DNA from: Eledone cirrhosa
Lineage: Eukaryota
Reading direction: 5' to 3'
NCBI GenBank assembly: GCA_964016885.1
Contig: OZ024743.1
Location: 146,630,001-146,694,000 of the forward strand
DNA length: 64,000 nt
The translations under genes were made by a program, and so were the position numbers. Positions 4,135-57,339 of the stretch are shown piece by piece; position 1 is the first letter of the stretch, and every line of letters starts with the position of its first letter. A model generated the notes under the pieces. The model was not told the DNA's origin and made no database searches. It worked only from the letters and a program-made list of their open reading frames with translations.

Positions 4135-5968
4135 TCATCATCATCATCATCATCATCATCACCGTTTTACGTCCGTTCTTCCACGCTAGCATGGGTTAGA
4201 CGGGTTGTCCTGTTGTGGGCAGTGTCCGGTCGGCTGACCATGCCTTGCTCATACAGGAACTGATTTGGCTTGATTTCTACAGCTGGATGCCCTTCTTAAC
4301 ACCAACCTCATTTAAGTGAGTGCTGGGTGCTTTTTCGTGGCGCCTACACGTCCACTTTACAGTGTGGGCTGGGTGCTTTTTTGCCGTGGCACCTCCACGA
4401 CCACCTTGCGGTGGGGGGAGTGGGGGCATATTGTCTATATGCTTCAGCTTGTACCCATGGGAGGTCGGGTACTCTGTATTACTGCGTGACGCCAGAAGTC
4501 ACGGTCGTGTGTCATTGCTTTTGAGAGGTGTAATTGGGTAAGGTCGGCTTTTATCACCTCATCCCAGGTCATCTTGGGTCTCCTACTTGGCGGTTTCCAT
4601 CAACTTCTAGTGCTCTGCACCTTTTTATGCAGCTGTCATCCTTCATATGCATCACATGTCCATACCAGCGCAACCGCCTCTCCTGCACATAGCATTTGAT
4701 TCCTCTTATGCTCAGTCTCTCTCTCAATTCATTTATGCTTTGTCGTTCACGTATATTACTGTTACACATCCATCGGAGCATGCAGGCTTCGTTTCTCTCT
4801 AATCTACGTAAGTCTTCCACCTTCAGCGCCCAGGTCTCACTACCATGCAACATTGCTGTTCGGATACACGCATCATACAGTCTGCCTTTCATTCTGAGGG
4901 AGAAGCCTTTTGCAGCTAGCAGTGGTAGTAGTTCCCTAAACTTCTTCCATCCCGTTCTTACCCTAGTTATTGTACTTTCTGAACACCCACCTCCGCTGCT
5001 AATTCGGTCACCTAGGTAGCAGAAGCTATCTACTGTTTCTACAGAGCCCTCCCAGAGATTGGTGGTACTTGTTTCCTGTGGCTGTTTGCTGCTTGCTGTC
5101 TCATCACAGCTGCTGCATGTGAAGCCTACATTCTTAATTAAGCTTCCTGAGATCCCGCTACATCTCTTGTGTACCCATTGTTTGCATTTGGGGCAGAGAA
5201 TGGAGTTCCTACCTACACCTTTCCTACATACTGAGCAAGGCCATTTCCCTGAGGGGATCTGGGTTCTGTTTTCTCGTCTACTTACAAGGACCTTAGTCTT
5301 TGTCATGTTGACTTTGAGACCCTTTCTTTCTAGTCCCTGCTTCCAAGTTTGGAATTTATTCTCTAGTTCTACCATAGATTCAGCTATGAGTGCGAGGTCA
5401 TCAGCATACAGGAGTTCCCATGGGCATCCGGTCTTAAACTCCTCCGTTATTGCCTGCAGGACTATGATGAACAGGAGGGGGCTAAGAACAGAGCCCTGGT
5501 GGACCCCAACTAAATTCCTTGCTATACTCATTGCTAATCCTAACTTTGCTGACTGCTCCCCTATACATGGCTTCTACCGCTTTCACAAGCCATTCATCTA
5601 CTCCTAGTTTTCTAAGAGCCCACCAGATTACAGCACGTGGAACTCTGTCAAAGGCTTTCTCAAGGTCGACAAATGCCAAGTAGAGTGGCTTACTTTTAGC
5701 TAGGTACTTTTCCTGTAATTGCCTCACAAGGAAGAGGGCATCAGTGGTGCCTCTTCCTGGTACAAACCCAAATTGCATCTCGTCTATTTCCACCCGGTCC
5801 CTAATCAACTGTGCTATAACTCTTTCTGTTACTTTCATGACCTGGTCCATCAACTTTATACCTCTATAGTTTCCTCTATCTAGTGCATCGCCTTTACCTT
5901 TGTAGCAGTTGACAATGATGCTACTGCACCAATCTTTTGGTATGACACCTTCTAGTATTACCTGGTTA
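4135..5968 (-). mobile_element. RTE-clade LINE, subfamily A, 5'-truncated, frameshifted
   Basis: ORFs 5482-5853 (QFGFVPG, FVDLEKAFD) and 4569-5531 (HQGSVLSP, YADD, PHD-like C4HC3, RLRWYGHV). 3' hairpin ccatgctagcgtgg and (GAT)n tail. An 8-nt deletion near 5510 relative to the 48772 copy breaks the frame. Confidence 0.95.
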
Positions 5969-8100: not shown

Positions 8101-8812
8101 GCATGAATGCAAGTACAAGGATTATGTGACCTAATTCAGTGTGTGCCAACAAATTATACACTAAATTATACAGATTATGTAATTGGATAAACCTAGGTTT
8201 TTAGTATATGAGTGCTAAGAATCTCTCAGGAGAGCTGGATCGCAGAAGGTCTTCAGAGAAGAAACCCCTGCTCTAGCAAATGTTTCGGCCCTTAACTTCT
8301 TACATTCTAAGGGGGCCCTTCTGCTGACATTTAGCTATTCAGATATTGAAGACTTGTTGTGTATTTAAATAATTGGAGATTTTGTTGACAGGATCTAGCT
8401 GGAACTCTTTCTGTTGCCTCTACTTTCAAACTTATATTCACATGCTTTCTTGAGTTTGGAAAAATAACGTTGGTAGTTATGGTATCAATGAGACATCAAC
8501 AGGATCACTGCTGCCGCCAATACTATGCCCACGACTCACTCAGAATTACTTCCCTTAGTGTGCACTAAAATACAAACATGGTGCCTTCTATGGAGGACGT
8601 TTTTGTCTTCCTCAACCAGATCCAGCTGGAATTCCTTTATGCTGCCTCTGATATTACCTTCACAGCTTTGGTCCTTGTCTTCCCAGAGACTGAAAGTTGT
8701 GTCATGAGATTGTTGGCAGATTTGCCCACAAAGCCTCTGACTCCAACTTCTATGACGAGAACTTTGACTCAAAAGTCAGATTCCCTCAGGTCTTTTTGTT
8801 CTTGATCATGTA

Positions 8813-10810
8813 TCATCATCATCATCATCACTGTTTTACGTCCGTTCTTCCACGCTAGCATGGGTTAGACGGGTTATCCTATTGTGGGCAGTGTCCGGTC
8901 AGCTGACCTTGTCTTGCTCATACGGGAACTGATTTTGGCTTGATTTCTACAGCTGGATGCCCTTCCTAACACCAACCTCATTTACAGTGAGTGCTGGGTG
9001 ATTTTTTTCCATGGAGCCTACATGTCCACTTTACAGTGTAGGCTGGGTGCTTTTTTGCCGTGGCACCTCCATGACCACTTTGCAGTGGGAGGGGTTGGGG
9101 GCATATTGTCTATATGCTTCAGCTTCGGCTTGTACCCATGGGAAGTCAGGATCTTCTGTATTACTGCGTGACACCAGAGGTCACGGTCATGTGTCATCCC
9201 CCTTGAGAGGTGCAATTGGGTAAGGTCGGCTTTTATCACCTTGTACCAGGTCTTCTTGGGTCTCCCCACTCCGCAGTTTCCATCGACTTCTAGTGCTCTG
9301 CACCTTTTTATGCAGCTGTCATCGTTCATATGCATCACATGTCCATACAAACGCAACCTCCTCTCTTGAACGCAGCATTTGATTCCTCTTATGCGCAGTC
9401 TCTCTCTCAATTCGTTTATGCTTTGCAATTCACGTATATTACTATTACACATCCATCGGAGCATGCAGTCTTCGTTTCTTTCTAATCTACGCAAGTCTTC
9501 TACAGACAGCACCCAGGTCTCACTACCATGTAACATTGTTGTTCGTATACATGCATCATACAGTCTAACCTTCATTTTGAGGGAAAAGCCGTTTGCAGCT
9601 AGTAGTGGCAGTAGCTCCCTGAACTTCTTCCATCCTGTTCTTACCCTAGTTATTGTACTTTCCAAACACCCACCTCCACTGCTAATTCGGTCACCTAGGT
9701 AGCAGAAGCTGTCTACTGTTTCTACAGAGCCCTCCCAGATTTTGGTAGTCCTTGTTTCCTGTGGCCGTTTGCTGCTTGCTGTCCCAGTGCAGCTGCTACA
9801 TATAAAGCCTACATTCTTAGTTAAGCTTCCTGAGATCTCACTACATCTCTTGTGTACCCATTGTTTGCATTTGGGGCAGAGAATGGAGTTCCTACCTACA
9901 CCTTTCCTACATACTGAGCAAGGCCATTTCCCTGAGGGGATCTGGGTTCTGTATTCTCATCTACTTACAAGGACCTTAGTCTTTGTCAGGTTGACTTTGA
10001 GACCCTTTCTTTCTAGTCCCTGCTTCCATGTTTGGAATTTCTTGTCTAGTTCCACCATAGATTCAGCTATAAGTGCGAGGTCATCTGCGTACAGAAGTTC
10101 CCATCGGCATCCGGTCTTAAACTCCTCCGTTATTGCCTGCAAAACTATAATGAACAAGAGAGGGTTAAGAACAGAGCCCTGGTGGACACCGACCTGTATG
10201 TTAAATTCCTCGCTATAGTCATTGCTAACCCTAACTTTGCTGACTGCTCCTCTATACATGGCTTGTACAGCTTCCACAAGCCATTCATCTACTTCTAATT
10301 TTCTAAGGGCCCACCAGATTATAGCACGGGGGATTATGTTGAAAACTTTTTCTAGATCAACGAATGCCAGGTAGAACGGCTTACTTTTAGCTAGGTACTT
10401 TTCCTGTAACTGCCTCATAAGGAAGAGGGCATCAGTGGTGTCTTTTCCTGGTACAAACCCAAATTGCATCTCATCTAGTTTTACCTGGTTCCTAATCAAC
10501 TGTGCTATACCTCTTTCCGTTACTTTCATGACTTGGTCCATCAGCTTTATACCTCTATAGTTTCCTCTATCTAGTGCATCACTTTTAACCTTGTAGCAGT
10601 TAACAATGATGCTGCTGCACCAATCTTTGGTATGATACCCTCTAGCATTACCTAGTTAACAATACATGCGGTTATGGTGTGACCTATGTGGTTATGGTAT
10701 GACCAGATGCCTTCAGCATCTCGGCAGCTATACCCGATGGACTGGTTGCCTTCTCCGTCTTCATATCTTTGATTGCCTTACTTACCTCGTTGCTGCTTTC
10801 AAATGGTACG
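8813..10810 (-). mobile_element. RTE-clade LINE, subfamily A, 5'-truncated, with stops
   Basis: ORFs 9957-10541 (FVDLEK, HQGS, YADD) and 9018-9665. Same 3'UTR, hairpin and (GAT)n tail as the 4135 copy. Confidence 0.95.
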
Positions 10811-26665: not shown

Positions 26666-28210
26666 GCTTTCTTTGTTAACCACAAGGGTTTACACAAAGT
26701 AGACATTAAGGACAGTACAGGACAATATAGGACGGTACAAATGGGCATTTCTGCGTGTAAAAAAACAAAAACAGAGAATATAACAAAAAAAGAACAATGA
26801 AAAATTCCCCAATAGGGGAGACTTCCGAGGGCCATCGTGGAGAAAGCCCTTTAAAAAAAAGCTACGGTGACCCTGACCACCAGGGCAAGTGCCCTCTCCC
26901 AGTTTTCCTCCTTCAATTTACAAGCATATACTCAGAGTAGGCCCATTCACTCGGGCCATTCTTGTCTCTCTCACCCATCTTTCAACAAAATGCTGGGAAG
27001 AGAGCACTTCCCTCTCTACCCTGATTTTCCTTTTCAAATGAAATTTGAAAAAGTTAATCAGGGTATCACCGAAGAGGTAAGTGGTCGTCTTCAGTCCTTT
27101 CAGATGCATCCACCATACTATCTCTTTCGCCATGGCCACCAGACAGATAAAAACTGCCTGCCCTTCCCGGCTAAAGGAAGAGGGCGGGGCAATCCTCACG
27201 ATGGACTCAGCTGATAGCCGGATTCGTTCTATACGCGACAGCAGGTGTTCAACATAAACCCACAAGTCAGCAATGCTCGGACACTGGACGAGTGCATGCA
27301 GAACGGGTTCGTCGCCCTGCGCACATCTCGGACATGCCCGGCTGATGGCACTTCCATGCCTGTAGAGTTTATCCCGAACTGGCAAAGCTCCTCGGTAGCA
27401 CTGCCAGGCCAGGGATTTCTGGAAATTGTTCATAGGCCCCGACCCGAAAGTTCTTCCGAAGAGATTGGCTAGTTGATTTTCATCAACGCCTAGAGTTTCC
27501 CCAAGTACGTCATCGCTCTTCCCCTCTACTAATCCTCTATAGACCGCCAAGGTGGAGTTTCCACCGATCACATTGCCCGACTGGTCGAGGGCTGTGAGCG
27601 CCTGAAGACATTCCAGTCTCCAAGCGCTCCCTCTTTGTCTTCGCTTGACCCAGGACTGCAGCTCCGTAAAGGAGACGAGCTGGGGAAAGACGCGTCTAGC
27701 AAACGGCGACGACATCTGATCACCGTCGAGGAAGAGATGGAGATGTCGTAGCCTGAGTGCGTGTCTGCAAATCATCAGCCACGGTATGCACAGCCCTCCA
27801 CGTAGCGGGTGTTGACAGCAGATGGACCGCCTGACCATCGGAGCGCATCCCTTCCACAAAAAGCGAAAGAGCAAATGCTCCAGCGCAGTCAGGCGAGGCT
27901 TAGGACAAGGCACGATGGTCAGGCGGTAGTAGATGACGGACGCGATGTACACATTCGCCACCTCCGCTCGATCTTTCAGGGATAGCTTCCTCTCCGCCCA
28001 TTTCTGAGTGAGAGAAGCCACCCTGCTCATCACCTCATCCCAGTTTTTGTCCGTCTGGAGGTCCGGACCAAATCAGACCCCTAGCAATTTAACCGGTCCA
28101 TCCGTCCAGCACCTGACGACGCTGTTGGACGGCATGGACCTGCCTGTCCAGGTGCCGAGCTGCAGGCCCACCGACTTTTCCTGGTTGATCATTGCTCCTG
28201 TCACCGCTTC
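26666..28210 (-). mobile_element. L1/Tx1-clade LINE, 3' part of ORF2 and 3'UTR
   Basis: GAMINQEKS...LLGV*FG, W..RKLSLKDR, FLWKG, GGLCIP, GALPVRDKL, CCHC CPRCAQGDEPVLHALVQC. T-rich 3'UTR ending cccttgtggttaacaaagaaagca-(tta)n. Confidence 0.88.
26918..28033 (-). pseudogene. L1/Tx1-like ORF2 C-terminal remnant (zf-RVT/CCHC), 371 aa
   Basis: ORF track with L1-type post-RT motifs; RT core absent. Confidence 0.8.
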
Positions 28211-29889: not shown

Positions 29890-30518
29890 GTATACATACA
29901 TACATACATGGTGGCTGCCAACTCGTTTTCGAGTACGGCCACTACTTTATATCCATGTAGGAGAACCCCTACCGATGCGCTGAACAAGTGTGACTTTTTA
30001 GTCCAGCCAGCGACTTGAAAACTCTGGCACAAACATTACACTTGTGACAATTATTGACACATAGTGCCAGGCCCATGGTACCATGTGACGGCAAGTGCAG
30101 AGAGATCTCCAGATATAAAGCAATGCCTGTGCCGTGAAGCTTTTATAGTGAGCAAAGGCACTGCACAAAGCCAGTCCCACTCTCTTAACCAAGATGATAT
30201 TTACCAAAAAGAAGAACAAGTCAACATCATTGGATACCATCAGGGCTGCAGGTGTTATATCTGAGTTTTCCTTCTCCTAGAATTCTGCCTTGACAAAGGC
30301 TAAGGGGTCATCTCTCCCGGTGATTTTGGATGGCCATTGACTCTTAAGAGCTCCTTTGCCCTTTGACAGGTTTTGCTTTTAGTCCTGCAGGATGTCCAAA
30401 GTCACCCCCCTCACCAAGAAACCTTGGTGGGGTTGCCAGTTTAGTCGCCAACGACAGGTTGTACTGGGATACATGTACTGGGACAGGTTGTACTGGGATA
30501 CATGTTACCAGTAGCACC
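29890..30518 (-). mobile_element. Internally deleted (bipartite) RTE-type element in (CATA)n
   Basis: Minus strand: 5'UTR-like motifs taagagtcaatggccatcc and tctaggagaaggaaaactc, then a terminal C2H2 finger HKCNVCARVFKSLAGLKSHTCSAHR* and a (TATG)n tail. Confidence 0.65.
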
Positions 30519-30574
30519 ATACATACAAGCATACATACATATATACATACATACATACATACATACATGTATGT

Positions 30575-30605
30575 ATGTATGTATGTATGTATGTATGTAT
30601 GTATG

Positions 30606-30636
<31 letters not shown>

Positions 30637-31555
30637 CATCATGTATAAATTATATACTGGGTGCCTTAACCTGTTCTTACAGGATCACTGTGCTACCAAC
30701 AACATCATAACACCTGAGCAAGCTGGTGGAAAGAGGGAGGTGTGGGGTTGCATAGATCACCTACTAACTAACAAAATGATTCAGGAAAAAACAACAAAGA
30801 ATCGCAGAAACATGACTGTCGTGTGGCTGGACTATCAAAAAGCATTTGATAGTGTACCTCATGGGTGGATTATTAAGGCTTTACAGTTAGCTAAAGTCCC
30901 ACAACCATTAGTAGCTGCTGTTGAACGCCTGACCAAGAACTGGTACACCAATTTGATCCTTAGAGGTGAGAAGGAGCAGGTTAAGACTGATAGGATACAT
31001 TACCAGAAGGGCATCTTTCAGGGTGATAGCTTGTCAGTACTACTCTTCGTTCTCTCACTGAATCCACTATCTTACCTACTCAGGAAACAAGGTGGACAAA
31101 GAAGTGGGCCCAGAAGTATCTCCCATCTTTTCTTTGTTGATGACCTGAAGTTGTATGGGCCAAATATCAATGACATCAAGAAACAATTGGACCTCATTAC
31201 ACAATTTTCAACCGACATCAAAATGAAATTTGGTGAGTCCAAGTGTGCATATTTGGCAGTAAAACGTGGAAGAGCTGTGCCCTCCTCTAGAAATCTAGAT
31301 ATGAACGGCCTGACAATACAACCTCTGCAGTCAGGTGACAACTACAGATATCTTGGACAGGATGAGAATGTCAGATATGATGGACCCATAAATAAGGAGA
31401 GAACCAGAACTGAATACCTCAGAAGAGTAAAAAAAAAAAATATGGTCATCAGAACTGTCAGCATACAACAAATACATTGCCCACAATACCTATGCTGTGC
31501 CAATTCTAACGCCAACATTTGGCCTACTGAACTGGTCATTGCAAGAACTAAGTGA
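30575..31555 (+). pseudogene. RT domain of the R4-like element (ATG comes from the microsatellite; true frame ends at the A12 run)
   Basis: RT motifs present. After A12 (31429-31440) the homologous frame continues as IWSSELSAYNK. Confidence 0.85.
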
Positions 31556-32750
31556 GATGGATGTTAGAACTCGTAAACTTCTCAGTGTTACTGGGAACTT
31601 TAACATCAATGGTGATGTGGATAGGCTATACTTCTCACGCAAGGAAGGTGGCCGGGGTCTAAAATCAATATTAACAACATATGAGACCCGGATAGTAACA
31701 CTGAAGCAACACCTTCAACAGAGGAAAAAGGTTGGCGACCATCTTGCTCAGGTTTATGAGCATGAAAAAAGAAATATCATTAGAATAGCGACTGATCTGG
31801 AGGAGAGATATGGAATAAAGCCTGATATAAATCTCTCACCCAGAGAAATCGGAAGATCCTATTCAATGTTCAAACAAGAAAAAAAAATTGACCAATTTAC
31901 AGAGAAAGTTGTGCATGGATACTTGAGGCGTAAAACACAGACCATAGAGGGGATAAACCACTCAAAAAGCCTGGCATGGAGTTCCGACAAGTTTATGACA
32001 TCACACCTTGAGGGATATCTCTATGCAATACAGGAACAAGAACTCCCTACCAAATATCTGCTGCACAAAAGAGGAGGGCCAGCAGCTGACAATAAATGTA
32101 GGCTATGTAAAACAAAGATCGAGGATGTAAGCCACATTGTTGCCAGCTGCGAAAGAATGTCATCTCGCTACTACCTCCCCATGAGACACGATGGGATAGC
32201 TAGAACTATCTGGAACGCACTTCGGAAAACAAAATTAACAACAAACGAGGAAGAATATATTGAGACAGATGGCACTAAGGAATACTGGTGGAACCTGAAA
32301 ATAAAAACTGCCACCAAATTAAAGCACAACCGGCCTGATATTGTAGTTTGGGACCACACATTGGAAACGTGTTCTGTTGTGGAGATCAGCTGCCCACTTG
32401 ATGTAAACGTTGTCAGAAAAATACAGGAGAAGGAGGACATCTACGGACCATTGATGAGGAGCTTACAAATCCAGTATCCAAGATACACCTTTAGCTTCAT
32501 ACCCATCATTATTGGTGCTACGGGTTATATACCAACCCGCTTGGACCAAAGTATGACCGAACTTGGATTTGCGGACAAAAAGCGCAGCTCCCTAATTCAT
32601 AGTCTACAAATGGCTGCGATAGCTGGCACCTTCAAAATATGCAAAACATTTTTGCGATTCAAGGGATGACAATTTCTTTTCTTTTACAACCTTGCCACCA
32701 GGAAGGTGGCCGGTCAAAAAAATATACTCGAAATTAAGAGAAAGAGAAAA
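30633..32750 (+). mobile_element. R4/Dong-like RLE non-LTR retrotransposon, 5'-truncated, single frameshift
   Basis: DYQKAFDSVPH, IFQGDSLS, HLFFVDDLKLY, GGRGL, CCHC CRLCKTKIEDVSHIVASC, RHD, RPDIVV, VVEIS. Short 3'UTR with hairpin gccacc-aggaa-ggtggc. Flanked by CATA/TATG arrays. Confidence 0.93.
31497..32669 (+). pseudogene. Thumb, CCHC and restriction-like endonuclease part of the R4-like element
   Basis: 390-aa open frame with CCHC, RHD and PD..E motifs. Confidence 0.88.
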
Positions 32751-35700: not shown

Positions 35701-36117
35701 GATCATAGACCCAACTGCAAAGCCCTATCAGCTATGGAAAGGAGGCAATAGGGGAGGGAGACAGGTATTAAGTTATAGGTGTTTGTGAGGATGGGTAGGA
35801 GTGGCTGATTAGTATATGAGGATGTAGTGATGTGAGGGATATGGTCAATATGGTGGGGGTAGGAGCCTGATGGAGAGATAGGTAGGAGGTAAAGGATAGG
35901 TGTAGGTGGTCAGTGTATGGGGAGAGGGGATGTAGTAGTGTGGAGGATGTTTTCAACAGAGGGGGGGTCATAGTGGAAAGATAGGAAAGAGGGTAAACAA
36001 GGGGTAGAGAGAGTAGCTACTAGGCTACTATGGTGAGGGTTTCTAAGGTCTTTAGAGGGGTTAAGGATTGGCAATGGGGTTTGAATATAGATATAAAATG
36101 GTTATGATGATGTATGT

Positions 36118-38910
36118 ATGTATGTATATATATATATATGTATATATATATATCTATATATCATCTCTGCCTATGCTCCCCAAGCAGGCCTAGGCAAAGA
36201 TGAGAAAGACTGCTTTTACGAGCAACTTTTACAAACAACCGCAATGACAGAGGACGGAGACATCGTTATGCTAGCAGGAGACTTCAATGGTCATGTTGGA
36301 CAGCTCCAGGATGGTTACACTGGGGTACATGGTGGGCACGGTTACGGCTCAAGAAATGAAGAAGGAGTGAGACTTCTTAAATTTTGTGATGCAAGTACAC
36401 TGACTATTTGCAACACAAACTTCCAGAAACCTGCCAACCACCTAATAACCTACAAATCTGGCGAGCACATAAGCCAGATTGACTTCTTACTAGTTAGGCA
36501 GTGGGACAAGCAGATAGTGTCTAATACCAAGGCATACCCTGGGGAAGAATGTACCCCACAGCATAGGTTAGTCGTTAGTGATATCTTAGTAAGCAAGAGA
36601 TGGAATGAGACATACAGGAAGGTGTGGAGAAGAAAGGTCTGGAAGCTAAAAGACCTTTCACTAAAATACAAATTTAGGAAAGCCCTTCAAGATGTGTATG
36701 ACGAAAAAGAAGACGATTTAGAGACGTATGACATAGATAATAACTGGAATTTCTTACGTGTCAACTTACTGCAGGCTACTGATGAAACTTGTGGCTGGAG
36801 CAGAGCTCCAACCAGACAGAAAGTGGCCTGGTGGTGGAACAGCACAGTAGATAAGGCCATTAGAGACAAAAGACTAGCATGGAAGGCTTGGAAAAAGGGT
36901 GGGAGTAGGGAAGAATATACAGCCACTAAGAGAGAAGCTAGACGTCAGGTGTACTTAGCACGCAGGGAGGCTGAGAGTAGGAGGTTTGCCAATGTTCTGC
37001 GACGGGAAGATCAGAGGTGTGCGGTGTTCCACATTGCAAGGCAGTGTGTCAATACCTATCAGGATGTTGTTGGAGATAAATGTGTCCGGAATGATGCCGG
37101 TGTACTTAGTGTCACAAATGATCAGAAAAAAAAGGCCTGGAAATGTCATTATGAGAGACTGATGAATGTGGAGAACGAATGGAAGAGAGAGAAATTACCC
37201 TCAGTAGATCCGACAGAGGGACCAGCTATTGAGATTGATGAATATAGGGTCCAAGAGGCGATTAAGGAAATGAAAAATGGTAAGGCTGCTGGACCATCGG
37301 GAATAGTTGCTGAGATGCTGAAGGCATCAGGGGACGTAGGCACTAAACTGGTTGCACGTATCATCAATCAGGCTATATATGGTGGTGTCATACCCAAAGA
37401 CTGGTGCAGCAGTATTCTCATAAATTGCTACAAAGGTAAAGGGGATGCTCTGGAGAGGAGCAATTATAAGGGTATAAAACTGATGGATCAGGTTATGAAA
37501 GTGGCAGAAAGGATATTAGCACAACTAATTAGAGAAAGGGTCAAACTAGATGAGATGCAATTTGGTTTTGTGCCTGGGAAGAGTACAACAGATGCCCTCT
37601 TCTTGGTGAGACAATTGCAAGAGAGGTTCTTAGAGAAAAATAAGCCACTATACTTAGCCTTTGTTAACCTAGAGAAGGCCTTTGATAGGGTACCCCGATC
37701 TGTCATCTGGTGGTCCCTAAGGAAACTAGGTGTTGAGGAATGGCTTGTGAGGACAGTGCAAACTTTGTACAGAGGTACTGTCAGTAAAGTCAGGGTAGAA
37801 ATGGAGTTTAGTGAGGAATTCCAGATACAAGTAGGAGTACATCAAGGTTCAGTCCTCAGCCCGCTCTTGTTCATTATAGTCCTCCAAGCCATAACAGAGG
37901 AGTTTAAGACTGGCTGTCCATGGGAACTTTTCTATGCTGATGATCTGGTTCTTATAGCAGAATCAGTAGAGGAGCTAGAGAATAAATTCTGGCTATGGAA
38001 ACAGCAGTTGGAAGCAAGAGGACTGATAGTGAACCTAGCTAAGACAAAAGTGTTGATGAGTAGAAAAGAGAACAAAACTCTGATTCCGTCAGGGAAATGG
38101 CCATGTTCGATATGCAGAAAAGGAACTGGCATAAATTCTATAAAATGCACACAATGCAGATCCTGGGTACACAAGAGATGTAACGGGATAGCAGGCAAAC
38201 TAACAGGTAGGGAGAAATATGTATCCAGTAGATGTACAGGGAAATTAGACAGTAGAAGTCGCATTGGTAGACACATTTTTCAAATACAGGCGGGTGCTAT
38301 AGAAGTGGTGGATAGCTTCCGGTATCTAGGAGATCAGATTAGAATGGGAGGGGGGTGTTCCGAGGCCATAGTATCTAGAATAAAGATGGGTTGGAAGAAG
38401 TTTAGGGAACTGCTTCATCTGCTGACGAAGAAGGGTTTCTCCCTGCATACAAAAGGCCGGTTATATGATGCCTGTGTGAGGAGCGCGATGCTCCATGGTA
38501 GTGAGATTTGGGCAGCAACTGCAAAGGATATGCGATGGCTGGAGAGAAATGAGGCAAGCATGCTCCGTTGGATGTGCAGTGTCAATGTGCGTGAACAACC
38601 CAGCATGAATGTGTTGAGAGAGAAACTGTGTCAGAGAAGGATAGAATGTAGTGAACGGGAGAAGAGACCGAGGTGGTATGAACATGTGATGCACATGGAG
38701 GATGACCGATGGGTGAAGAAGTGCCAGGAAATGCCAGTTGAAGGAAGACGTGGTAGAGGTAGACCACAAAAAACATGGGCAGAAGTGGTAAGAACAGACC
38801 TCAGATCGCTGAAGCTCACGGTGGAGATGATGAAGGATCGTGACAAGTGGAGAGATGCTGTGCTGAATAAGACCCGTCCCACCCTTGCAAGCAGGGAAGA
38901 GTGGACGTAA
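36118..38910 (+). CDS. RTE APE-RT polyprotein, 930-aa open frame, probably inactive
   Basis: Uninterrupted ORF, but the start lies in a (TA)n tract, RT motif A reads FVNLEKAFD (D>N) and the last PHD CxxC reads SSRC. Confidence 0.75.
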   Translation: MYVYIYICIYIYLYIISAYAPQAGLGKDEKDCFYEQLLQTTAMTEDGDIVMLAGDFNGHVGQLQDGYTGVHGGHGYGSRNEEGVRLLKFCDASTLTICNTNFQKPANHLITYKSGEHISQIDFLLVRQWDKQIVSNTKAYPGEECTPQHRLVVSDILVSKRWNETYRKVWRRKVWKLKDLSLKYKFRKALQDVYDEKEDDLETYDIDNNWNFLRVNLLQATDETCGWSRAPTRQKVAWWWNSTVDKAIRDKRLAWKAWKKGGSREEYTATKREARRQVYLARREAESRRFANVLRREDQRCAVFHIARQCVNTYQDVVGDKCVRNDAGVLSVTNDQKKKAWKCHYERLMNVENEWKREKLPSVDPTEGPAIEIDEYRVQEAIKEMKNGKAAGPSGIVAEMLKASGDVGTKLVARIINQAIYGGVIPKDWCSSILINCYKGKGDALERSNYKGIKLMDQVMKVAERILAQLIRERVKLDEMQFGFVPGKSTTDALFLVRQLQERFLEKNKPLYLAFVNLEKAFDRVPRSVIWWSLRKLGVEEWLVRTVQTLYRGTVSKVRVEMEFSEEFQIQVGVHQGSVLSPLLFIIVLQAITEEFKTGCPWELFYADDLVLIAESVEELENKFWLWKQQLEARGLIVNLAKTKVLMSRKENKTLIPSGKWPCSICRKGTGINSIKCTQCRSWVHKRCNGIAGKLTGREKYVSSRCTGKLDSRSRIGRHIFQIQAGAIEVVDSFRYLGDQIRMGGGCSEAIVSRIKMGWKKFRELLHLLTKKGFSLHTKGRLYDACVRSAMLHGSEIWAATAKDMRWLERNEASMLRWMCSVNVREQPSMNVLREKLCQRRIECSEREKRPRWYEHVMHMEDDRWVKKCQEMPVEGRRGRGRPQKTWAEVVRTDLRSLKLTVEMMKDRDKWRDAVLNKTRPTLASREEWT

Positions 38911-44572: not shown

Positions 44573-45878
44573 TCATCATCATCATTTTATGTCCACTTTT
44601 CCCTGCTTGCAAGGGTGGGATGGGTCCTATTCAGCACAGCATCTCTCCACTTGTCACGGTCCTTTGTTATCTACTCCGTGAATTTCAGCGATCTGAGGTC
44701 TGCTCTCACCACCTCCACCTATGTTTTTCATGGGCTTCCTCTACTGCGTTTTCCTTCTACTGGGATTTCTTGGCACTTCTTTACATAGCGGTCATCCTCC
44801 ATGTGCATCACATGTCTATACCATCTCAGTCTTCTCTCCTGCACACCACAACTTATCCCTCTTATACCTAGTTTCTTTCTCAACTCGTCTATGCTTGGTT
44901 GTTCACGCACATTGACATTGCCCATCCAACGGAGCATGCTTGCTTCATTTCTATCCAGCCATCGCATATCCTCTGCAGTTGCTGCCCAAATCTCACTACC
45001 ATGGAGCATCGCGCATCTCACACAGGCATCATATAACCGTCCTTTCGTATGCAGGGAGAAACCCTTCTTTGTCAACAGAGGAAGCAGCTCCCTAAACTTC
45101 TTCCAACTTGTCCTTATTCTACATACTACTATGGCTTCGGAACACCCCCCTCCCATGCTAATCTGATCACCTAGGTACCAGAAGCTATCAACCACTTCTA
45201 TAAACCCACCTCCATTGGAAAAATGTGTCTATCACTGCGATTAATACTGCCAACTTTCCCTGTACATCTACTGCATACGTAGTTTCCCCTACCTGTTAGT
45301 TTGCCTGCTATCCCACTACATCTCTTATGTACCCAAGATCTGCATTGCATACATTTTATTTAATTTATGCCAGTTCCTTTTCTACATATCGAACATGGCC
45401 ATTTCCCAGATGGAATCAGAGTTTTGTCCTCTCTTCTACTTATTAACATTTTTGTCTTAGCTATGTTCACTCTCAGGCCTCTTGATTCCAACTGCTGTTT
45501 CCATAGCCAGAATTTATTCTCTAGCTCCTCTACTAATTCTGCTATAAGAACCAGATCATCAGCATAGAGAAGTTCCAATGGGCATCCAGTCTTAAAGTCC
45601 TCTGTTATGGCTTGGAGGACTATAATGAACAAGAGCGGGCTGAGGACCGAACCCTGATGTACACCTACTTGTATTTGGAATTCCTTACTAAACTCCATTC
45701 CTACTCCCACTTTACTGACAGCACACCTGTATATAGCTTGCACTGTCCTCACATGCCATTCCTCTACACCTAGTTTCCTTAGGGACCACCAGATGGCCTT
45801 CTTTAGGTCAACCAAAGGCCTTCTCTAGGTCAACAAAAGCTAAGTATAGTGGCTTATTCTTCTCTAAGAACCTCTCTC
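44573..45878 (-). mobile_element. RTE-clade LINE, subfamily B, 5'-truncated, with stops and indels
   Basis: ORFs 45360-45815 and 44728-45195 closely match the 36157 copy; same 3' hairpin and tail. Confidence 0.93.
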
Positions 45879-48296: not shown

Positions 48297-48771
48297 CGCA
48301 ACCGGTAAAAACTTAAAACTAAAACTGAATACTAACTAATACTTATTACTAATTTATACTTATTCCTAATTAAACTATTTTTCACTGGCAAAAATTTGTC
48401 AGCATTTTCTTTTCCTTTTTACTAATATATCACAACTTGTGTGTCACACCTCTATTTAAAAAATATATATATATATATATATATATTATCAGTAATACTA
48501 ACATAGCATAATGCATAATTGGTGTGTATAGGAAGGTATATACAATATGTTTATGTATAATAAACAAATATAAGTCTCACTATGATAGTTTTAAGATCTT
48601 ATCAGCTCGTCAGAGTTATCTGCGTAGCCAAGTGGGAACACCAGATATTAGTATTTCATAATCCATCATCACTGACGTTTACTCACCTAGTACTGAGAGA
48701 AGAATAAGCTATAGCTTATACACATTTTGCATATAAAACATCTACTGGAGAAGTTCATTTGCATATAGTGC

Positions 48772-50376
48772 GCTCTTCCTTGTGAGGCAATTACAGGAAA
48801 AGTACCTAGCTAAAAGTAAGCCACTCTACTTGGCATTTGTCGACCTTGAGAAAGCCTTTGACAGAGTTCCACGTGCAGTAATCTGGTGGGCTCTTAGAAA
48901 ACTAGGAGTAGATGAATGGCTTGTGAAAGCGGTACAAGCCATGTATAGGGGAGCAGTCAGCAAAGTTAGGATTGGCAATGAGTATAGCGAGGAATTTAGC
49001 GTACAGGTTGGGGTCCACCAGGGCTCTGTTCTTAGCCCTCTCCTGTTCATCATAGTCCTGCAGGCAATAACGGAGGAGTTTAAGACCGGATGCCCATGGG
49101 AACTCCTGTATGCTGATGACCTCGCACTCATAGCTGAATCTATGGTAGAACTAGAGAATAAATTCCAAACCTGGAAGCAGGGACTAGAGAGAAAGGGCCT
49201 CAAAGTCAACATGACAAAGACTAAGGTCCTTATAAGTAGACGAGAAAACAGAACCCAGATCCCCTCAGGGAAATGGCCTTGCTCAGTATGTAGGAAAGGT
49301 GTAGGTAGGAACTCCATTCTTTGCCCCAAATGCAAACAATGGGTACACAAGAGATGTAGCGGGATCTCAGGAAGCTTAATTAAGAATGTAGGATTCACGT
49401 GCAGCAGCTGTGCTGAAACAGCAAGCAAACAGCCACAGGAAACAAGTACCACCAATCTCTGGGAGGGCCCTGTAGAAACAGTAGACAGCTTCTGCTACCT
49501 AGGTGACCGAATTAGCAACGGAGGTGGGTGCTCAGAAAGTACAATAACTAGGGTAAGAACGGGATGGAAGAAGTTTAGGGAACTACTACCACTGCTAGCT
49601 GCAAAAGGCTTCTCCCTCAGAATGAAAGGCAGACTATATGATGCGTGTATCCGAACAGCGATGTTGCATGGTAGTGAGACCTGGGCGCTGAAGGTGGAAG
49701 ACTTACGTAGATTAGAGAGAAACGAAGCCTGCATGCTCCGATGGATGTGTAACAGTAATATACGTGAACGACAAAGCATAAATGAATTGAGAGAGAGACT
49801 GAGCATAAGAGGAATCAAATGCTGCGTGCAGGAGAGGCGGTTACGCTGGTATGGACATGTGATGCGTATGAAGGATGACAGCTGCATAAAAAGGTGCAGA
49901 GCACTAGAAGTTGATGGAAACCGCGGAGTGGGGAGACCCAAGATGACTTGGGATGAGGTGATAAAAGCCGACCTTACCCAACTACACCTCTCAAAGTCAA
50001 TGACACACGACCGTGACTTCTGGCGTCACGCAGTAATACAGGGTACCCGACCTCCCATGGGTACATGCTGAAGCATATAAACAATATGCCCCCCCCCCCC
50101 ACCGCAAGGTGGTCGTGGAGGTGCCACGGCAAAAAAGCACCCAGCCCACACTGTAAAGTGGACGTGTAGGCGCCACGAAAAAGCACCCAGCACTCACTGT
50201 AAATGAGGTTGGTGTTAGGAAGGGCATCCAGCTGTAGAAATCAAGCCAGATCAGTTCCTGTATGAGCAAGGCATGGTCAGCCGACCAGACACTGCCCACA
50301 ACAGGACAACCCGTCTAACCCATGCTAGCGTGGAAGAACGGACGTAAAACGGTGATGATGATGATGATGATGATGA
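48772..50376 (+). mobile_element. RTE-clade LINE, subfamily A, young 5'-truncated copy, 7-bp TSD
   Basis: Intact 429-aa RT-PHD-C-terminal frame; TSD atagtgc at 48765-48771 and 50376-50382; (GAT)n tail. Confidence 0.96.
48782..50071 (+). CDS. RTE reverse transcriptase with embedded PHD-type finger (5'-truncated, open frame)
   Basis: FVDLEKAFD, HQGS, YADD, CSVC-x10-CPKC-x4-H-x2-C-x15-CSSC. Confidence 0.75.
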   Translation: MRQLQEKYLAKSKPLYLAFVDLEKAFDRVPRAVIWWALRKLGVDEWLVKAVQAMYRGAVSKVRIGNEYSEEFSVQVGVHQGSVLSPLLFIIVLQAITEEFKTGCPWELLYADDLALIAESMVELENKFQTWKQGLERKGLKVNMTKTKVLISRRENRTQIPSGKWPCSVCRKGVGRNSILCPKCKQWVHKRCSGISGSLIKNVGFTCSSCAETASKQPQETSTTNLWEGPVETVDSFCYLGDRISNGGGCSESTITRVRTGWKKFRELLPLLAAKGFSLRMKGRLYDACIRTAMLHGSETWALKVEDLRRLERNEACMLRWMCNSNIRERQSINELRERLSIRGIKCCVQERRLRWYGHVMRMKDDSCIKRCRALEVDGNRGVGRPKMTWDEVIKADLTQLHLSKSMTHDRDFWRHAVIQGTRPPMGTC

Positions 50377-50417
50377 TAGTGCATACTTTATTTGGGTAGG
50401 GTTATTTAATTATAGGC

Positions 50418-52345: not shown

Positions 52346-52668
52346 ATGTATGTATGTATGCATGTATGTATATATATTGTGTGTATGTATGCTGTGTGTG
52401 CATGCATTTACATATATGTATATTTGTGTGTGTATGATAGTGTGTGTACATACATATATATACACACACACAAATAGATACATACCTTTTATCATGGCAC
52501 CAAAACGACTACCTTCCATACATATAAATAGTGGTAGAACACTGGATGGTAATATCCGTAGTGGTAGAGCACTCAGTCCATGGGACGAGTTAGGTAGAAG
52601 TGGTTACACAACAGTTAGTTCACCATACCGAGAACAATTGTTTCACCTTTGCGGATCCTCAGCTGGTA

Positions 52669-52738
<70 letters not shown>

Positions 52739-53662
52739 ACGGCGATGAATTAGTTTTGCGAGGTTTTTTATATGAAATCGTGTGTCGAAATAAAAATATT
52801 GTTATACTTGGGGAGGGTCATATTTGTGTAATAATATTGCCAGAATTAATAACAGAACACACTCACTGTTTGGTTGGTTTTCGCTTCTGTGTCTTTTATA
52901 TCAGTTAATTTAATTTATTCGGTCCTCAATATTACCATTGACTGACCAACGGTCAAAAATACAGATACAATATAGACACAAACACATATATATAGTCTAA
53001 CTAAGTTCTTTCGTTGCACATCTGCAACTTCGTCAGTGGTGCTATTATGTTTCCTCCCATTGTATTGTATGCCTACGCCATCTTTATTTAGTCTGTTTAT
53101 TTATTTATTTTTTGTTTGTCTTCTCTGCGCATGCGTTTGCGTGTGTGTGTAGTGTTTGATGTGTGTTTGTGTTTGGGTGACTGTGTATTGGTTATTGTAT
53201 TCTATCTTAGTTTACTAGTGTGTGTTTATATGTGTTTCTTGTGATTGTGCTTGTGTATGTATTTATTTATTTATTTATTTATTTATTTATACTTTCTTAG
53301 GTCAGTATTGTTTGTTTCGGGGTTGTTGTTATTCCATTCATTTTTTCTGTTTAGCCTTGGCCTTCTAACTTCTATTTCGCTGGCTTCTCTGATTTACCTA
53401 TCTGCTAGGTCATTTCTATGTTTAGATGTTGCAGATGTGCAACGAAAGAACTTTGTTAGACTATATATATATGTGTTTGTGTCTATATTGTATCTGTATT
53501 TTTGACCGTTAGTCAGTCAATGGTAACATTGAGGACCGGATAAATTAAATTAACCGATATAAACGGCACAGAAGCGAAAACCAACCAAACAGTGAGTGTG
53601 TTCTATTATTAATTCTGGTAATATTATTACACAAATATGACCCTCCCCAATTATAACAATAT
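52739..53662 (-). mobile_element. Non-autonomous Penelope-like fold-back element H1 (inverted pseudo-LTRs plus tail) in (TA)n
   Basis: Arms 52796-53028 and 53428-53662 are inverted; ~57-bp one-sided extension 52739-52795; (TA)n on both sides; hammerhead motif. Confidence 0.75.
52998..53041 (-). ncRNA. Minimal type I hammerhead ribozyme motif (stem I degenerate)
   Basis: acca-CUGACGA-a-GUUGCA-gaug-UGCAAC-GAAA-gaac-UU-aguu. Confidence 0.6.
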
Positions 53663-53681
53663 ATATATATATATATATATA

Positions 53682-56660
53682 TCATCATCATCATCATCAT
53701 CATCATCGTCGATCTTCCACGCTTGCATGGGTTTGGACGGGAGTTTTCCCACTTGAGGCAAGAGTGGTTGTCTTGCTCGCATAGGACTGTCTGGCGGGTT
53801 TTCTATGGCTGGATGCCCTTCCTAACACCAAACACATTTACAGTGTGGAACTGGGAGGTTTTTACCGTGTTACCTACACGGCCACATTACAGCATGGACT
53901 GTGTGTTTTTTTGTCGTGACACCTACACGACCTCATTTGTTTTGGACTGGATGTTGTGGTGCCAACATAACTTTACATTGAAAGGGGTGGTGTGGATGGG
54001 GTGGCGGTAGTGGGACGGGGGTGTATTTTGTTAGAGATGCCTACTGACTGTAGTAGGTTTCACTTTGTACTTAGGTAAGGCGGGTCTTCTGTATTACTGT
54101 GTAGCGCCAAAGATCTCGGTCCAGTGACATTGTCTTGGAGAGGTGTAAGTGTGTGAGGTCGGAATTTATCAAGTCCTCCCAGGTTTTTCTGGGTTTGCCT
54201 ACTCCGTGGCTACCGTCTATTTTTATTTCCCTGCACTTTTTTATACAGCTGTCGTCTTTCATGCGCATCACGTGACCATACCAACGTAGTCTTCTCTCGA
54301 GTAAACAACATCTGATCCCTCTTATTTCTAATTTTTCCCTTAGTTCGTTTATGCTTTGCCGTTCACGTATATTACTATTACACATCCAGCGGAGCATGCA
54401 AGCTTCATTCCTCTCCAGTCTGCGTATATCCTCTGCACACAATGCCCAGGTCTCACTGCCATGTAACAGTGCTGTTCGTATGCAGGCATCATACAGCCTG
54501 CCTTTCATTTTTAGAGAGAACCCTTTAACGGCTAATAGTGGTATAAGCTCTCTGAACTTTTTCCATCCAGTTCTGACTCTAGCTACTGTACTTTCAGAGC
54601 ACCCTCCACCACTGCTGATTTTGTCACCCAAGTAACGGAAGGTGTCCACTATTTCTATAGAACCATCTGTGCAATGGAATGAGCTAGTATTCTGTGGGCA
54701 CTTGCTGCTACTTATTGCACCAGAGCACCGGCCACATATACAATCTATGTTATTAGTTAGCTTACCTGTGATCCCACTACATCTTTTATGCACCCATACT
54801 TTGCATTTGGGACATAAAATGGAGTTTCTACCTACTCCTTTCCTACACATTGAGCATGGCCATTTCCCGGATGGGACCGGTGCCCTATTTTCCTTCCTAC
54901 AAACTAGAACTTTAGTCTTAGACAGGTTAATTTTAAGGCCTTTTGATTCTTGGCCATGCTTCCATGTTTGGAATTTCTTCTCTAGTTCGGCCATTGATTC
55001 AGCTATGAGCGTTAGATCATCTGCGTATAGGAGTTCCCATGGGCAGCCGGTCTTGAACTCCACTGTTATAGCCTGAAGGGCAATAATAAATAGTAGGGGC
55101 TAAGAACGGAGCCCTGATGAACACCAACTCTTACGCTAAACTCTTCACTATATTCGTTGTTAATTCTAACCTTGCTGACTGTTTCTTTATACATGGCTTG
55201 TATAGCTCTCACAAGCCATTCATCAACACCTAGTTTTCTAAGAGCCCACCAGATAACGGAACGGAGGACTCTGTCGAAGGCTTTCTCCAAGTCGACAAAA
55301 GCTAAGTATAGGGGTTTACTTTTAGCTAGGTACTTATCCTGTAGTTGTTGTACAATGAAAAGAGCGTCTATGGTACTTTTTCCTGACACAAACCCGAACC
55401 GCATTTCATCTAGATCAATTCTCTCTCTGATTAGTTGCGCTATTACTTTTTCTGTGACCTTCATGACCTGGTCGATTAATTTAATGCCTTTATAGTTACT
55501 CCTATCTAGGGCGGCTCCTTTACCCTTGTAGCAGTTAATGATGATGCTGCTACACCAGTCCTTCGGAGCAACCCCATTCTGTATGACTTGGTTTACTATC
55601 CGGGTGACCATGGTGTGTCCCACCGTTCCAGAAGCTTTCTGCATTTCAGCAACTATTTCCGAAGGCCCAGCCGCCTTACCCGTCTTCATATCTTTGATTG
55701 CCTTACTTATTATACTACCTTCGACTAACACTGATGGTCCCTCTATTGGATCAATGTGGGGGAGACTGTCTTTCTCCCATTTATTCTCCTCATTTAGTAG
55801 CCTTTCGTAGTGACACTTCCAAGCTACCTTCTTATCAGCGTCAGTGATTGCAAGTACACCTTCATCATTAATCACACACTTCTCCCCGACAATATCACGG
55901 TTTTCCTTGACACATTGCCTAGCAATCCTGAACACCTCACGTTTTTGGTCCTCGCATTGTAGAACATGCTTGAACTTTCTTTCCTCTGCTTCCCTTCTTG
56001 CGAAGTACACTTGTCTCCTAGCTTCCCTCCTGGCCACTTGATACTCTTCTCTACTTCCCCCATCCCGCCATACTTTACAAGCCTGCTTTTTGGCCTTAAT
56101 TGACTCCTCCACCTTACTGTTCCACCACCACGTTACTCTCCTCCTGCCTATAGGCCTGCTCCAGCCACAGACATCGTCTGCCGCCATCAGCAGGTTTGCT
56201 TTCAGGAATTCCCACTGCTCCTCTATATTGTACGACTCTAAATGCTCTTACTTACTGTCGAAAGCATCAAGTAATATGCTTTTAAATTTATTTCTGGCTG
56301 TGGGGTCCTTTAGCTTTAGCTTCCATATTTTTCTCCTGAGGATAGTCCTCTTCTGTTGTCGAGTACGTCTCGTCCTGACTATGAGATCGCTAATTATCAG
56401 TCTATGTTGGGAGGTGCATTCTTCATGGGGGAGGGATTTAGTGTTTACAACAGACACTTTGTCACGTCTTCTGGTAAGATATAATCTACCTGGCTGGTAT
56501 GTTCCCCTGATCTGTAGGTGATCAAGTGATTGTCTCATTTTTTGAAGTTAGTGTTACAGATAGTTGGGTTATTTGCCTCACAGAATTCCAGGATTCTGGA
56601 GCCTTCCTAGTTTCTAGTACCAAACCCATAGCCTCCGTGATTTCATCATAGCTGTCACAA
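53682..56660 (-). mobile_element. RTE-clade LINE, subfamily C, partial APE through 3'UTR, frameshifted
   Basis: ORFs 56248-56538, 55066-56187 and 54071-55063 give QHRL, WWWN, FVDLEKAFD, YADD and a complete PHD-like finger; hairpin and (GAT)n tail. Confidence 0.95.
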
Positions 56661-56661
56661 T

Positions 56662-56711
<50 letters not shown>

Positions 56712-56713
<2 letters not shown>

Positions 56714-57250
56714 TTGTTATACTTTGGGAGGGTCATGTTGCCAATAAGAAACACACGCACCAGTTGTTTCACTTCAATTTATTATATATTTATAAATTTA
56801 TAAATTTACAAATCTACAAACTTATAAATTTCTGGTTGGTTGGTTCCACAACCAGATAGTTGTTTATATATAGTCATAGTCCTTTCGTCACACACTCTGT
56901 GACCTCTTCAGTGACTGGGGATTCCTTTCTTTGTTTCTGTGCCTTTCCTTTCTTCTGTCCTACACCATTTTGTTTCTGTGTGTGTGTTGAAGAGGTCACA
57001 GAGTGTGTGACGAAAGGACTATGACTATATATAAACAACTATCTGGTTGTGGAACCAACCAACCAACCAGAAATTTATAAGTTTGTAGATTTGTAAATTT
57101 ATAAATTTATAAATATATAATAAATTGAAGTGAAACAACTGGTACATGTGTTTCTTATTGGCAACATGACCCTCCCAAAGTATAACAATATCGGTTTCAA
57201 CACACGATTTCAGATAAAGAATCTTGCTAAACAAATTCAGAAACGAAATA
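56712..57250. mobile_element. Non-autonomous Penelope-like fold-back element H2 in (TA)n
   Basis: Near-perfect inverted arms 56712-56910 and 56988-57191; extension 57192-57250 is homologous to the H1 extension; (TA)n flanks. Confidence 0.8.
56872..56916 (-). ncRNA. Minimal type I hammerhead ribozyme motif
   Basis: AGUCA-CUGAAGA-g-GUCAC-agagugu-GUGAC-GAAA-ggac-UA-UGACU; stems I and II perfectly paired, core nucleotides present. Confidence 0.75.
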
Positions 57251-57339
57251 TATACATATACATACATATATATACATATATATACAGCATTCGTTAGCTT
57301 GCCTGCAACCAGAGCTCCGATTATGCTGTACTACTTTCT

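What the first reader, a model, noticed from the sequence alone, without database searches (positions are those of the whole stretch)
52739..53662. Second, divergent member of the hammerhead fold-back family, with stem II covariation and a shared tail
Seen: inverted arms 52796-53028 / 53428-53662 in (TA)n. The arm interiors differ from H2, yet two things are kept. First, the ribozyme layout CUGACGA-a-GUUGCA gaug UGCAAC-GAAA-gaac-UU: stem II has a different sequence but is still paired, with the same extra nucleotide and a gRac stem III. Second, the terminal ~80 nt (atgaccctccc.aagtataacaatat...tttc.acacacgatttca.ataaa.aa.ct.gc.aaac.aattca). In both elements one arm is truncated within the ribozyme and the tail-less arm ends at ..tataacaatat, running into (TA)n. 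Inference: selection on the fold and on a 3' cis-element, with target priming via TA microhomology.
Basis: partly seen in the sequence, partly recalled or inferred. Interest (0 to 1): 0.75.

Follow-up and report, generated by a model that had tools for sequence, protein, structure and literature searches.

The report
Two-armed Penelope retroelement insertion stub
This fold-back is one of many thousands of broken insertions of a Penelope-like jumping gene, and because such mirror-image pairs almost always join one short-ended arm to one long-ended arm, they likely record the enzyme copying its RNA once from each side of a DNA cut.

Summary
The repeat is real but is not a separate ribozyme family. 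It is the 3' end of a high-copy Penelope-like retroelement (RT, CxxC linker, C-terminal GIY-YIG; Neptune/Nematis type) joined head-to-head to a second, shorter copy. H2 is a sister family (63% protein identity). Hammerhead in the pLTR, inverted arm, one-sided tail and (TA)n targets are all published PLE traits. The shared 80 nt are codons 1-27 of the element's ORF, not a free-standing RNA tail. Breakpoints are not enriched in the hammerhead (7 vs 7.6 and 1 vs 4.3 expected); they cluster just before a shared YY1-like motif, a likely transcription start. What adds to print: 49 of 50 and 26 of 27 head-to-head pairs join one tail-less to one tailed arm, and in 26 of 49 neither arm contains the other, which favours two priming events at two fixed RNA sites over fold-back copying. 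Earlier notes of this scan reached the same two-ended reading on other DNA.

The parts
52669..52738 (.). (TA)n target, left side
52739..52795 (-). Tail: ORF nt 27-~82, present on this arm only; ends where template TAT meets the TA run (predicted second RT start site)
52796..52821 (-). ORF codons 1-9 (ATG at 52821); nt 26 (52796) is the fixed tail-less end used by 86 of 92 family arms
52739..53424 (-). Long, tailed arm: 5'-truncated copy of family A
52998..53041 (-). Minimal type I hammerhead motif: core 53036-53003, predicted scissile bond 53003/53002; first stem I pair is broken in this copy
53076..53084 (-). YY1-like motif shared with family B; arms stop in excess just 5' of it (likely transcription start)
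53127..53135 (-). Second shared upstream motif (GCGCATGCG; NRF1-like name is recalled, from no call)
53283..53423 (-). Last ~45 codons of the GIY-YIG endonuclease domain, with one internal stop
53425..53427 (.). Head-to-head junction; 3 nt (GAT) fit both arms
53425..53662 (+). Short, tail-less arm: starts at G8 of the hammerhead core (lacks the first five core bases), ends at ORF nt 26
53663..53681 (.). (TA)n target, right side
56711..57251 (.). H2: same architecture from sister family B (tail-less minus arm 56711-56990, tailed plus arm 56988-57251)

Best explanation
This is a truncated, two-armed insertion of an endonuclease-bearing Penelope-like retroelement, whose arms were likely made by two reverse-transcription events primed from the two ends of one cut in a (TA)n repeat. 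Shown: family identity, coding nature of the shared 80 nt, fixed outer ends, one-tailed/one-tail-less pairing, TA flanks. Inferred: the RT-endonuclease protein (probably a dimer) binds the 5' part of its ORF RNA and cuts both strands; one DNA end primes at ORF nt 26, the other 43-60 nt further 3', with local TA/AT pairing setting the register; both cDNAs run 5'-ward, stop early or run off the RNA start near the YY1-like motif, and are joined by end-joining. The hammerhead is carried along in the pLTR and does not set the breakpoints; this copy is a dead end.
For: Copies extend into a ~4 kb ORF with RT (RVT_1 E 2.5e-6 to 6e-4) and a GIY-YIG-type end; pLTR-ORF-pLTR copies L063, L188, L274. Pairing: family A 49 of 50 classifiable unique pairs mixed, 1 tail-less/tail-less; family B 26 of 27, 1 tailed/tailed. 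Tail-less arm reaches further 5' in 26 of 49 A pairs, tailed in 21, equal in 2, so in 26 neither arm contains the other. Ends: 86/92 and 39/39 tail-less arms at nt 26; 44/60 A tails at nt 69, 71 or 84, 34/38 B tails at nt 86, none at the ATAT at nt 47-50 of A. Partner arms are closer to each other than the family median in 34 of 36 pairs. In vitro, the anole PLE cuts and extends both strands, starts RT at two internal sites that bound the tail, is predicted to be a dimer, and does not need its hammerhead (PMC11167929).
Against: No RNA, protein or activity data here. [quoted passage not shown] Two same-type pairs exist (L153, L275). Many arms are solitary, mostly tail-less (37 tail-less, 11 tailed rows before removing family-B cross-hits, internal tails and 4 short tail remnants). 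RVT_1 scores are below Pfam's cut-off and Pfam found no GIY-YIG. This very copy (tailed arm longer) is also compatible with fold-back, and its arms are no closer than the family median (41st percentile). Sample is from contig C1 only.
Confidence: 0.65

Rival explanations
1. L1-style twin priming on one long partial-tandem RNA: the first end primes at a tail-less 3' pLTR followed by read-through (UA)n, the second primes internally at the tail behind an upstream pLTR. Same two-ended chemistry, but the two sites lie on different pLTR copies and no dimer asymmetry is needed.
For: Partial tandems with an internal tail and a tail-less 3' end exist (L188, L274); inverted internal pieces abutting an arm occur (L207, L209, L307); solitary arms are mostly tail-less. 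Twin priming is the proposed L1 model (PMC10760644).
Against: Tailed arms reach up to 2-2.9 kb upstream (L147, L190), and L063 has a full-length tailed arm with an inverted tail-less arm, which needs RNAs of 8 kb or more; both arms can stop at the same YY1-like site (L146, L285).
Confidence: 0.2
2. Self-priming or fold-back: the inverted arm is copied from the first cDNA or from an antisense template (the model of PMC3846280).
For: Explains near-identical partner arms; 2 of 49 pairs are perfect palindromes; 21 of 49 have the tailed arm longer.
Against: In 26 of 49 pairs neither arm contains the other; fold-back would not stop the second arm at nt 26. An antisense-RNA version is not excluded by these counts.
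Confidence: 0.1
3. One reading: a non-autonomous hammerhead fold-back family that moves as a unit, with breakpoints set by the ribozyme.
For: Both window elements break inside the core; the core is conserved across families.
Against: Inner junctions differ from copy to copy over a range of more than 3 kb; no excess in the core or at the scissile bond (A 7 vs 7.6, 5 vs 2.5, P 0.11; B 1 vs 4.3, 2 vs 1.4); the arms are parts of a coding element.
Confidence: 0.03

Closest known systems
Canonical EN+ Penelope-like elements, Neptune/Nematis type (PMC8557442, passages; PMC3846280, passages and Discussion)
   Same: Single ORF RT + CX2-5CxxC linker + C-terminal GIY-YIG with CCHH; 5' truncation; partial tandems; inverted 5'-truncated copy; tail at one end; pLTR plus tail encode the first codons of the ORF (12 and 22 aa in Adineta Pen2a; 9 and 23-28 here); Asn-rich ORF segment; (TA)n targets.
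   Different: Tail is 43-60 nt rather than 30-40; the papers call it 'optional' or 'often at one end', here it is on exactly one arm in 75 of 77 pairs. Neptune versus Nematis not resolved.
Poseidon of Anolis carolinensis, PAc (PMC11167929, parts 1-2 of 4 read)
   Same: Two RT start sites inside the 5' part of the ORF bounding the tail; AT-rich targets; hammerhead upstream.
   Different: PAc ORF starts inside the hammerhead and RT starts ~111-118 nt into it; here ATG is 145-185 nt past the scissile bond and ends fall at nt 26 and 69-86. PAc lacks the linker Zn finger by clade; no strand bias seen in vitro.
Minimal hammerheads of metazoan PLEs (PMC4209133, parts 1-2 of 4 read)
   Same: Type I core, long stem II, unpaired base between 9 and 10.1, G10.1-C11.1, 2-bp stem III, family-level covariation, pairs on opposite strands 100-700 bp apart.
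   Different: Family A has only 2 continuous stem I pairs (5 in family B); loop 3 (AA or GA) is not palindromic.
L1 twin-priming inversions (PMC10760644, passage)
   Same: Two primings at one target, cDNAs joined by microhomology into an inversion.
   Different: L1 inversions do not duplicate the 3' end; here both arms carry it and both start sites are fixed.
Metazoan non-LTR retrozymes (bioRxiv 10.64898/2026.07.22.740005, part 1 of 5 read)
   Same: Type I hammerhead, PLE connection.
   Different: Retrozymes are non-coding tandem monomers; this is a stub of the coding element.

Membership tests
EN+ Penelope-like element | RT domain in a single long ORF | tested here: met
   RVT_1 in 3 of 4 ORF pieces, E 2.5e-6 to 6e-4, below curated cut-off; one ORF broken by decay in L063 and by one frameshift in L274; Atlas neighbours 0.95-0.98 carry RVT_1/GIY-YIG in a minority of members
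EN+ Penelope-like element | C-terminal GIY-YIG endonuclease with two Cys between the GIY and YIG boxes (CCHH) | tested here: met
   Read by eye in translations of both families; Pfam gave no GIY-YIG hit
EN+ Penelope-like element | pLTR formed by partial tandem, with tail running into the ORF | tested here: met
   L063, L188, L145, L315, L329, L274
EN+ Penelope-like element | Inverted 5'-truncated copy and tail at one end | tested here: met
   tail 43-60 nt, longer than the published 30-40
EN+ Penelope-like element | RT groups with PLE/telomerase RTs in a tree | not tested
   No reference set was built
Neptune or Nematis clade | CX2-5CxxC linker before the endonuclease | tested here: met
   C-x4-C-x2-C in both families; definition
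Neptune or Nematis clade | Placement in one of the two clades | not tested
   Needs a tree with named references
Minimal PLE hammerhead | Conserved core, extra base after A9, G10.1-C11.1, long stem II | tested here: met
   Core invariant and stem II 97.9% paired in 16 rows; 152 of 178 cores fully paired
Minimal PLE hammerhead | Stem I of 4-5 bp | tested here: not met
   Family A has 2 continuous pairs and this copy has lost the first; family B has 5
Minimal PLE hammerhead | Palindromic 15.2-16.2 and loop 3 | tested here: inconclusive
   G15.2-C16.2 pair kept in 14 of 16 rows, loop AA/GA not palindromic
Minimal PLE hammerhead | Self-cleavage | not testable with these tools
   No assay; no RNA holder listed
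Non-LTR retrozyme | Non-coding tandem monomers each with a hammerhead | tested here: not met
   Arms are parts of a coding element
MITE / fold-back DNA transposon | Fixed structure with equal terminal inverted repeats shared by copies | tested here: not met
   Outer ends unequal, inner junctions differ per copy

The most novel reading that the evidence does not exclude
Penelope-type integration is obligately asymmetric and two-ended: a protein dimer assigns one DNA end to the near RT start site and the other to the far one, so the 'optional tail' is the fixed mark of the second protomer and inverted pLTRs are the normal product; transcription starts at a YY1-type element about 80-95 nt before the hammerhead, as in L1.
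Probability: 0.5. Interest if true: 0.62.

Novelty: new member of a known kind. Interest (0 to 1): 0.4.

Why it matters
How Penelope-like elements make inverted pLTRs and one-sided tails is named as open in PMC8557442 and PMC3846280. A near-strict pairing rule with base-exact sites in two families of more than ten thousand ends each gives a direct prediction for the in vitro system of PMC11167929. The element itself and its hammerhead are ordinary for the class.

Tried and rejected
Rfam at E<=1 showed only microsatellite-driven miRNA hits. Pfam missed the endonuclease; PDB gave only weak RT matches, E 0.013 and 0.025. Folding did not recover the hammerhead beyond stem II (z -0.87, -1.88, -0.84) or any tail structure. 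Ribozyme-set breakpoints rejected. Extra nucleotide-level constraint on codons 1-9 (2 of 9 third positions differ against 37 of 73 downstream) is not significant, P 0.16. Sequencing runs: no RNA holder listed; contigs of X1-X3 did not span the junction, so they neither confirm nor question it; 5-6% arm divergence argues against an assembly duplication. First arm annotation lost diverged copies and was redone. Target-site duplication cannot be read inside (TA)n. The original twin-priming paper was not held; a review passage is cited. R-scape was not available. Look-up by sequence in earlier findings was empty.

Full report
Observation. The arms are real: 52790-53031 against 53425-53668, 94% alike, between two TA runs. 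The minus strand of the left arm has a full hammerhead core at 53036-53003; the right arm starts at G8 of the same core. H2 (56711-57251) has the same layout and shares only the outer ~80 nt (82% over 79 nt). The core pattern occurs 28,692 times in the genome against 84 for the reversed control. Rfam did not show a hammerhead among the 150 of 152 rows printed.

Identity. The 30 best genomic copies are polar: one sharp 3' end in TA repeats and variable 5' ends. Longer copies continue into an ORF; the window's spacer itself encodes its last ~45 residues. Twenty long copies reach about 4 kb with weak RVT_1 hits in 3 of 4 pieces scanned, a C-x4-C-x2-C linker and a GIY-YIG-type domain with two internal Cys. 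L063 (family A) and L274 (family B, H2's family) show pLTR-ORF-pLTR with an inverted arm. The ORFs are 63% identical over 421 aa. An exact 26-mer anchor occurs 11,853 times for A (6,330 running straight into TA, 4,384 into the tail) and 27,081 times for B (11,579 tailed). By the features in PMC8557442 (passages) this is a canonical EN+ PLE of Neptune/Nematis type; no tree was built. The host is a ~3.0 Gb animal genome; its species was not tested.

The shared 80 nt. In internal copies the tail runs on, in frame, into the ORF. The segment is codons 1-27; between L188 and L274, 11 of 18 differences are at third positions, 8 codons differ silently and 7 change the residue. No common fold was found. 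PMC3846280 (passages) already reports that pLTR plus tail encode the first 22 residues in Adineta, and PMC11167929 (parts 1-2) that RT starts at two sites in the 5' ORF that bound the tail. So the segment is coding and likely also the RT start region.

Hammerhead. In 16 hand-picked rows of three lineages the core is invariant and stem II is 97.9% paired, with two pairs changed on both sides (U-A/C-G, G-C/A-U); slid controls pair 21-42%. The changes trace to about one lineage split, and the count of pairs with double changes was reached by 260 of 500 shuffles, so covariation alone is modest; the stronger point is an invariant core in otherwise unalignable pLTRs. The extra base is T in A and G in B; A is private to this copy, which also breaks the first stem I pair. 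All of this matches the minimal PLE hammerheads of PMC4209133 (parts 1-2), including pairs on opposite strands.

Breakpoints. I fetched loci around the first 100 A anchors on contig C1 plus 40 further sites, and 50 B loci, and removed tandem and segmental duplicates (157 A arms, 78 B arms, the latter including B copies met in A loci; 41 and 26 ran beyond the 900 nt examined). Stops inside the core: 7 against 7.6 expected (A), 1 against 4.3 (B); within 5 nt of the scissile bond 5 against 2.5 (P 0.11) and 2 against 1.4. Stops are in excess in the 19 nt ending at a shared AA(G/A)ATGGCG motif 80-94 nt upstream: 12 against 3.8 and 10 against 2.0 with a local baseline; the best window was matched by 8 and 2 of 300 simulations. 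The window was chosen after seeing the data and lies next to A-rich sequence. The motif resembles the YY1 site at L1 5' ends (PMC5381506, passages), and the Drosophila element has its promoter in the pLTR (PMC2377424, passages), so I infer run-off at the RNA start. I took the run-off reading from earlier scan notes and tested it here.

Pairing rule. One search listed 46 head-to-head rows; dropping 7 tandem repeats, 1 segmental duplicate and 4 rows with an unclassifiable arm leaves 34, of which 33 are mixed (L187's tail is cut by another insertion) and 1 is tail-less on both sides (L153). One search adds 16 mixed pairs (L304 resolved); L307, L327 and L333 were not classifiable. Total 49 of 50 (48 of 49 gave P 9e-14). 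Five more tail-less arms have a 12-40 nt inverted tail remnant at their inner end and are not counted. For B, 24 of 27 pairs among the first 100 anchors were mixed by exact pattern (P 2e-5) and 26 of 27 after inspecting the three exceptions; 13 of the 24 'non-tail' calls were checked by eye. Tail-less arms end at ORF nt 26 (86 of 92, 39 of 39); tails end at a few TA/AT positions 43-60 nt further on and not at an equally good ATAT nearer by. In 26 of 49 A pairs the tail-less arm reaches further 5', so neither arm can have been copied from the other. Partner arms are closer than the family median in 34 of 36 loosely defined pairs, in the top tenth in 19; shared age or gene conversion could also give that.

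Mechanism. Most likely two priming events, one per DNA end, at two fixed RNA sites, then joining of the two truncated cDNAs (3 nt fit both arms at this junction). Shown: sequence anatomy and counts. Inferred: double-strand cutting, dimer, RNA start, end-joining. Rivals are L1-like twin priming on a long tandem RNA, and antisense self-priming (PMC3846280 Discussion).

Novelty. The architecture is in print. Four searches (listings only) found no paper stating the strict one-tailed/one-tail-less rule or two-ended priming for PLEs; subscription papers, among them the 2005-2006 reviews, and all supplements were not seen. Earlier notes of this scan (538 match the words; same genome) propose two-ended copying on other DNA; these are unchecked and not independent support. 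Verdict: new member of a known kind, interest 0.4.

Noticed in passing
window 52505-52668: A different dispersed repeat directly left of the TA run (23 hits in 1.37 Mb of fetched loci); minus strand has hammerhead-like boxes with a palindromic stem III but a poor stem II. A copy interrupts the tail in L187.
   Followed up: partly
window 53675-53990: Another dispersed repeat beginning with (CAT)n right of the element (80 hits in fetched loci; several in the window).
   Followed up: partly
L137 604 (-), L146 2173 (+), L163 1559 (-): An unrelated hammerhead family with a 7-bp stem I and palindromic stem III, 12+ hits, not followed by the shared ORF start.
   Followed up: no
L193 395-1933; L205 4587-5685: Whole two-armed stubs amplified in tandem (5 and 4 units).
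   Followed up: no
L063 4300-4700; L274 ORF: Asn-rich low-complexity segment in the N-terminal third of both ORFs, recalling the N-rich inserts of Adineta Penelopes (PMC3846280).
   Followed up: no
L029 2000-2255: Endonuclease-like end of another, unrelated Penelope-type family inserted beside a family A copy; no Pfam hit.
   Followed up: partly
family B arms, -44 to -36 from the scissile bond: Six of 78 arms stop at the 5' strand of stem I, just outside the core (bin 6 of 55 at risk); not seen in family A and not tested separately.
   Followed up: partly
L015, L158, L228: A third lineage with family B's stem II and family A's flanks.
   Followed up: partly
window 4137-5740, 8812-10655, 36097-38910, 44575-45877, 48737-50377, 54071-56615; 30515-32669; 26918-28072: Several decayed RT-coding non-LTR elements (RTE-like, restriction-endonuclease-type and L1/Tx1-like by recalled motifs); the window is TE- and microsatellite-rich with no obvious host gene.
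   Followed up: no
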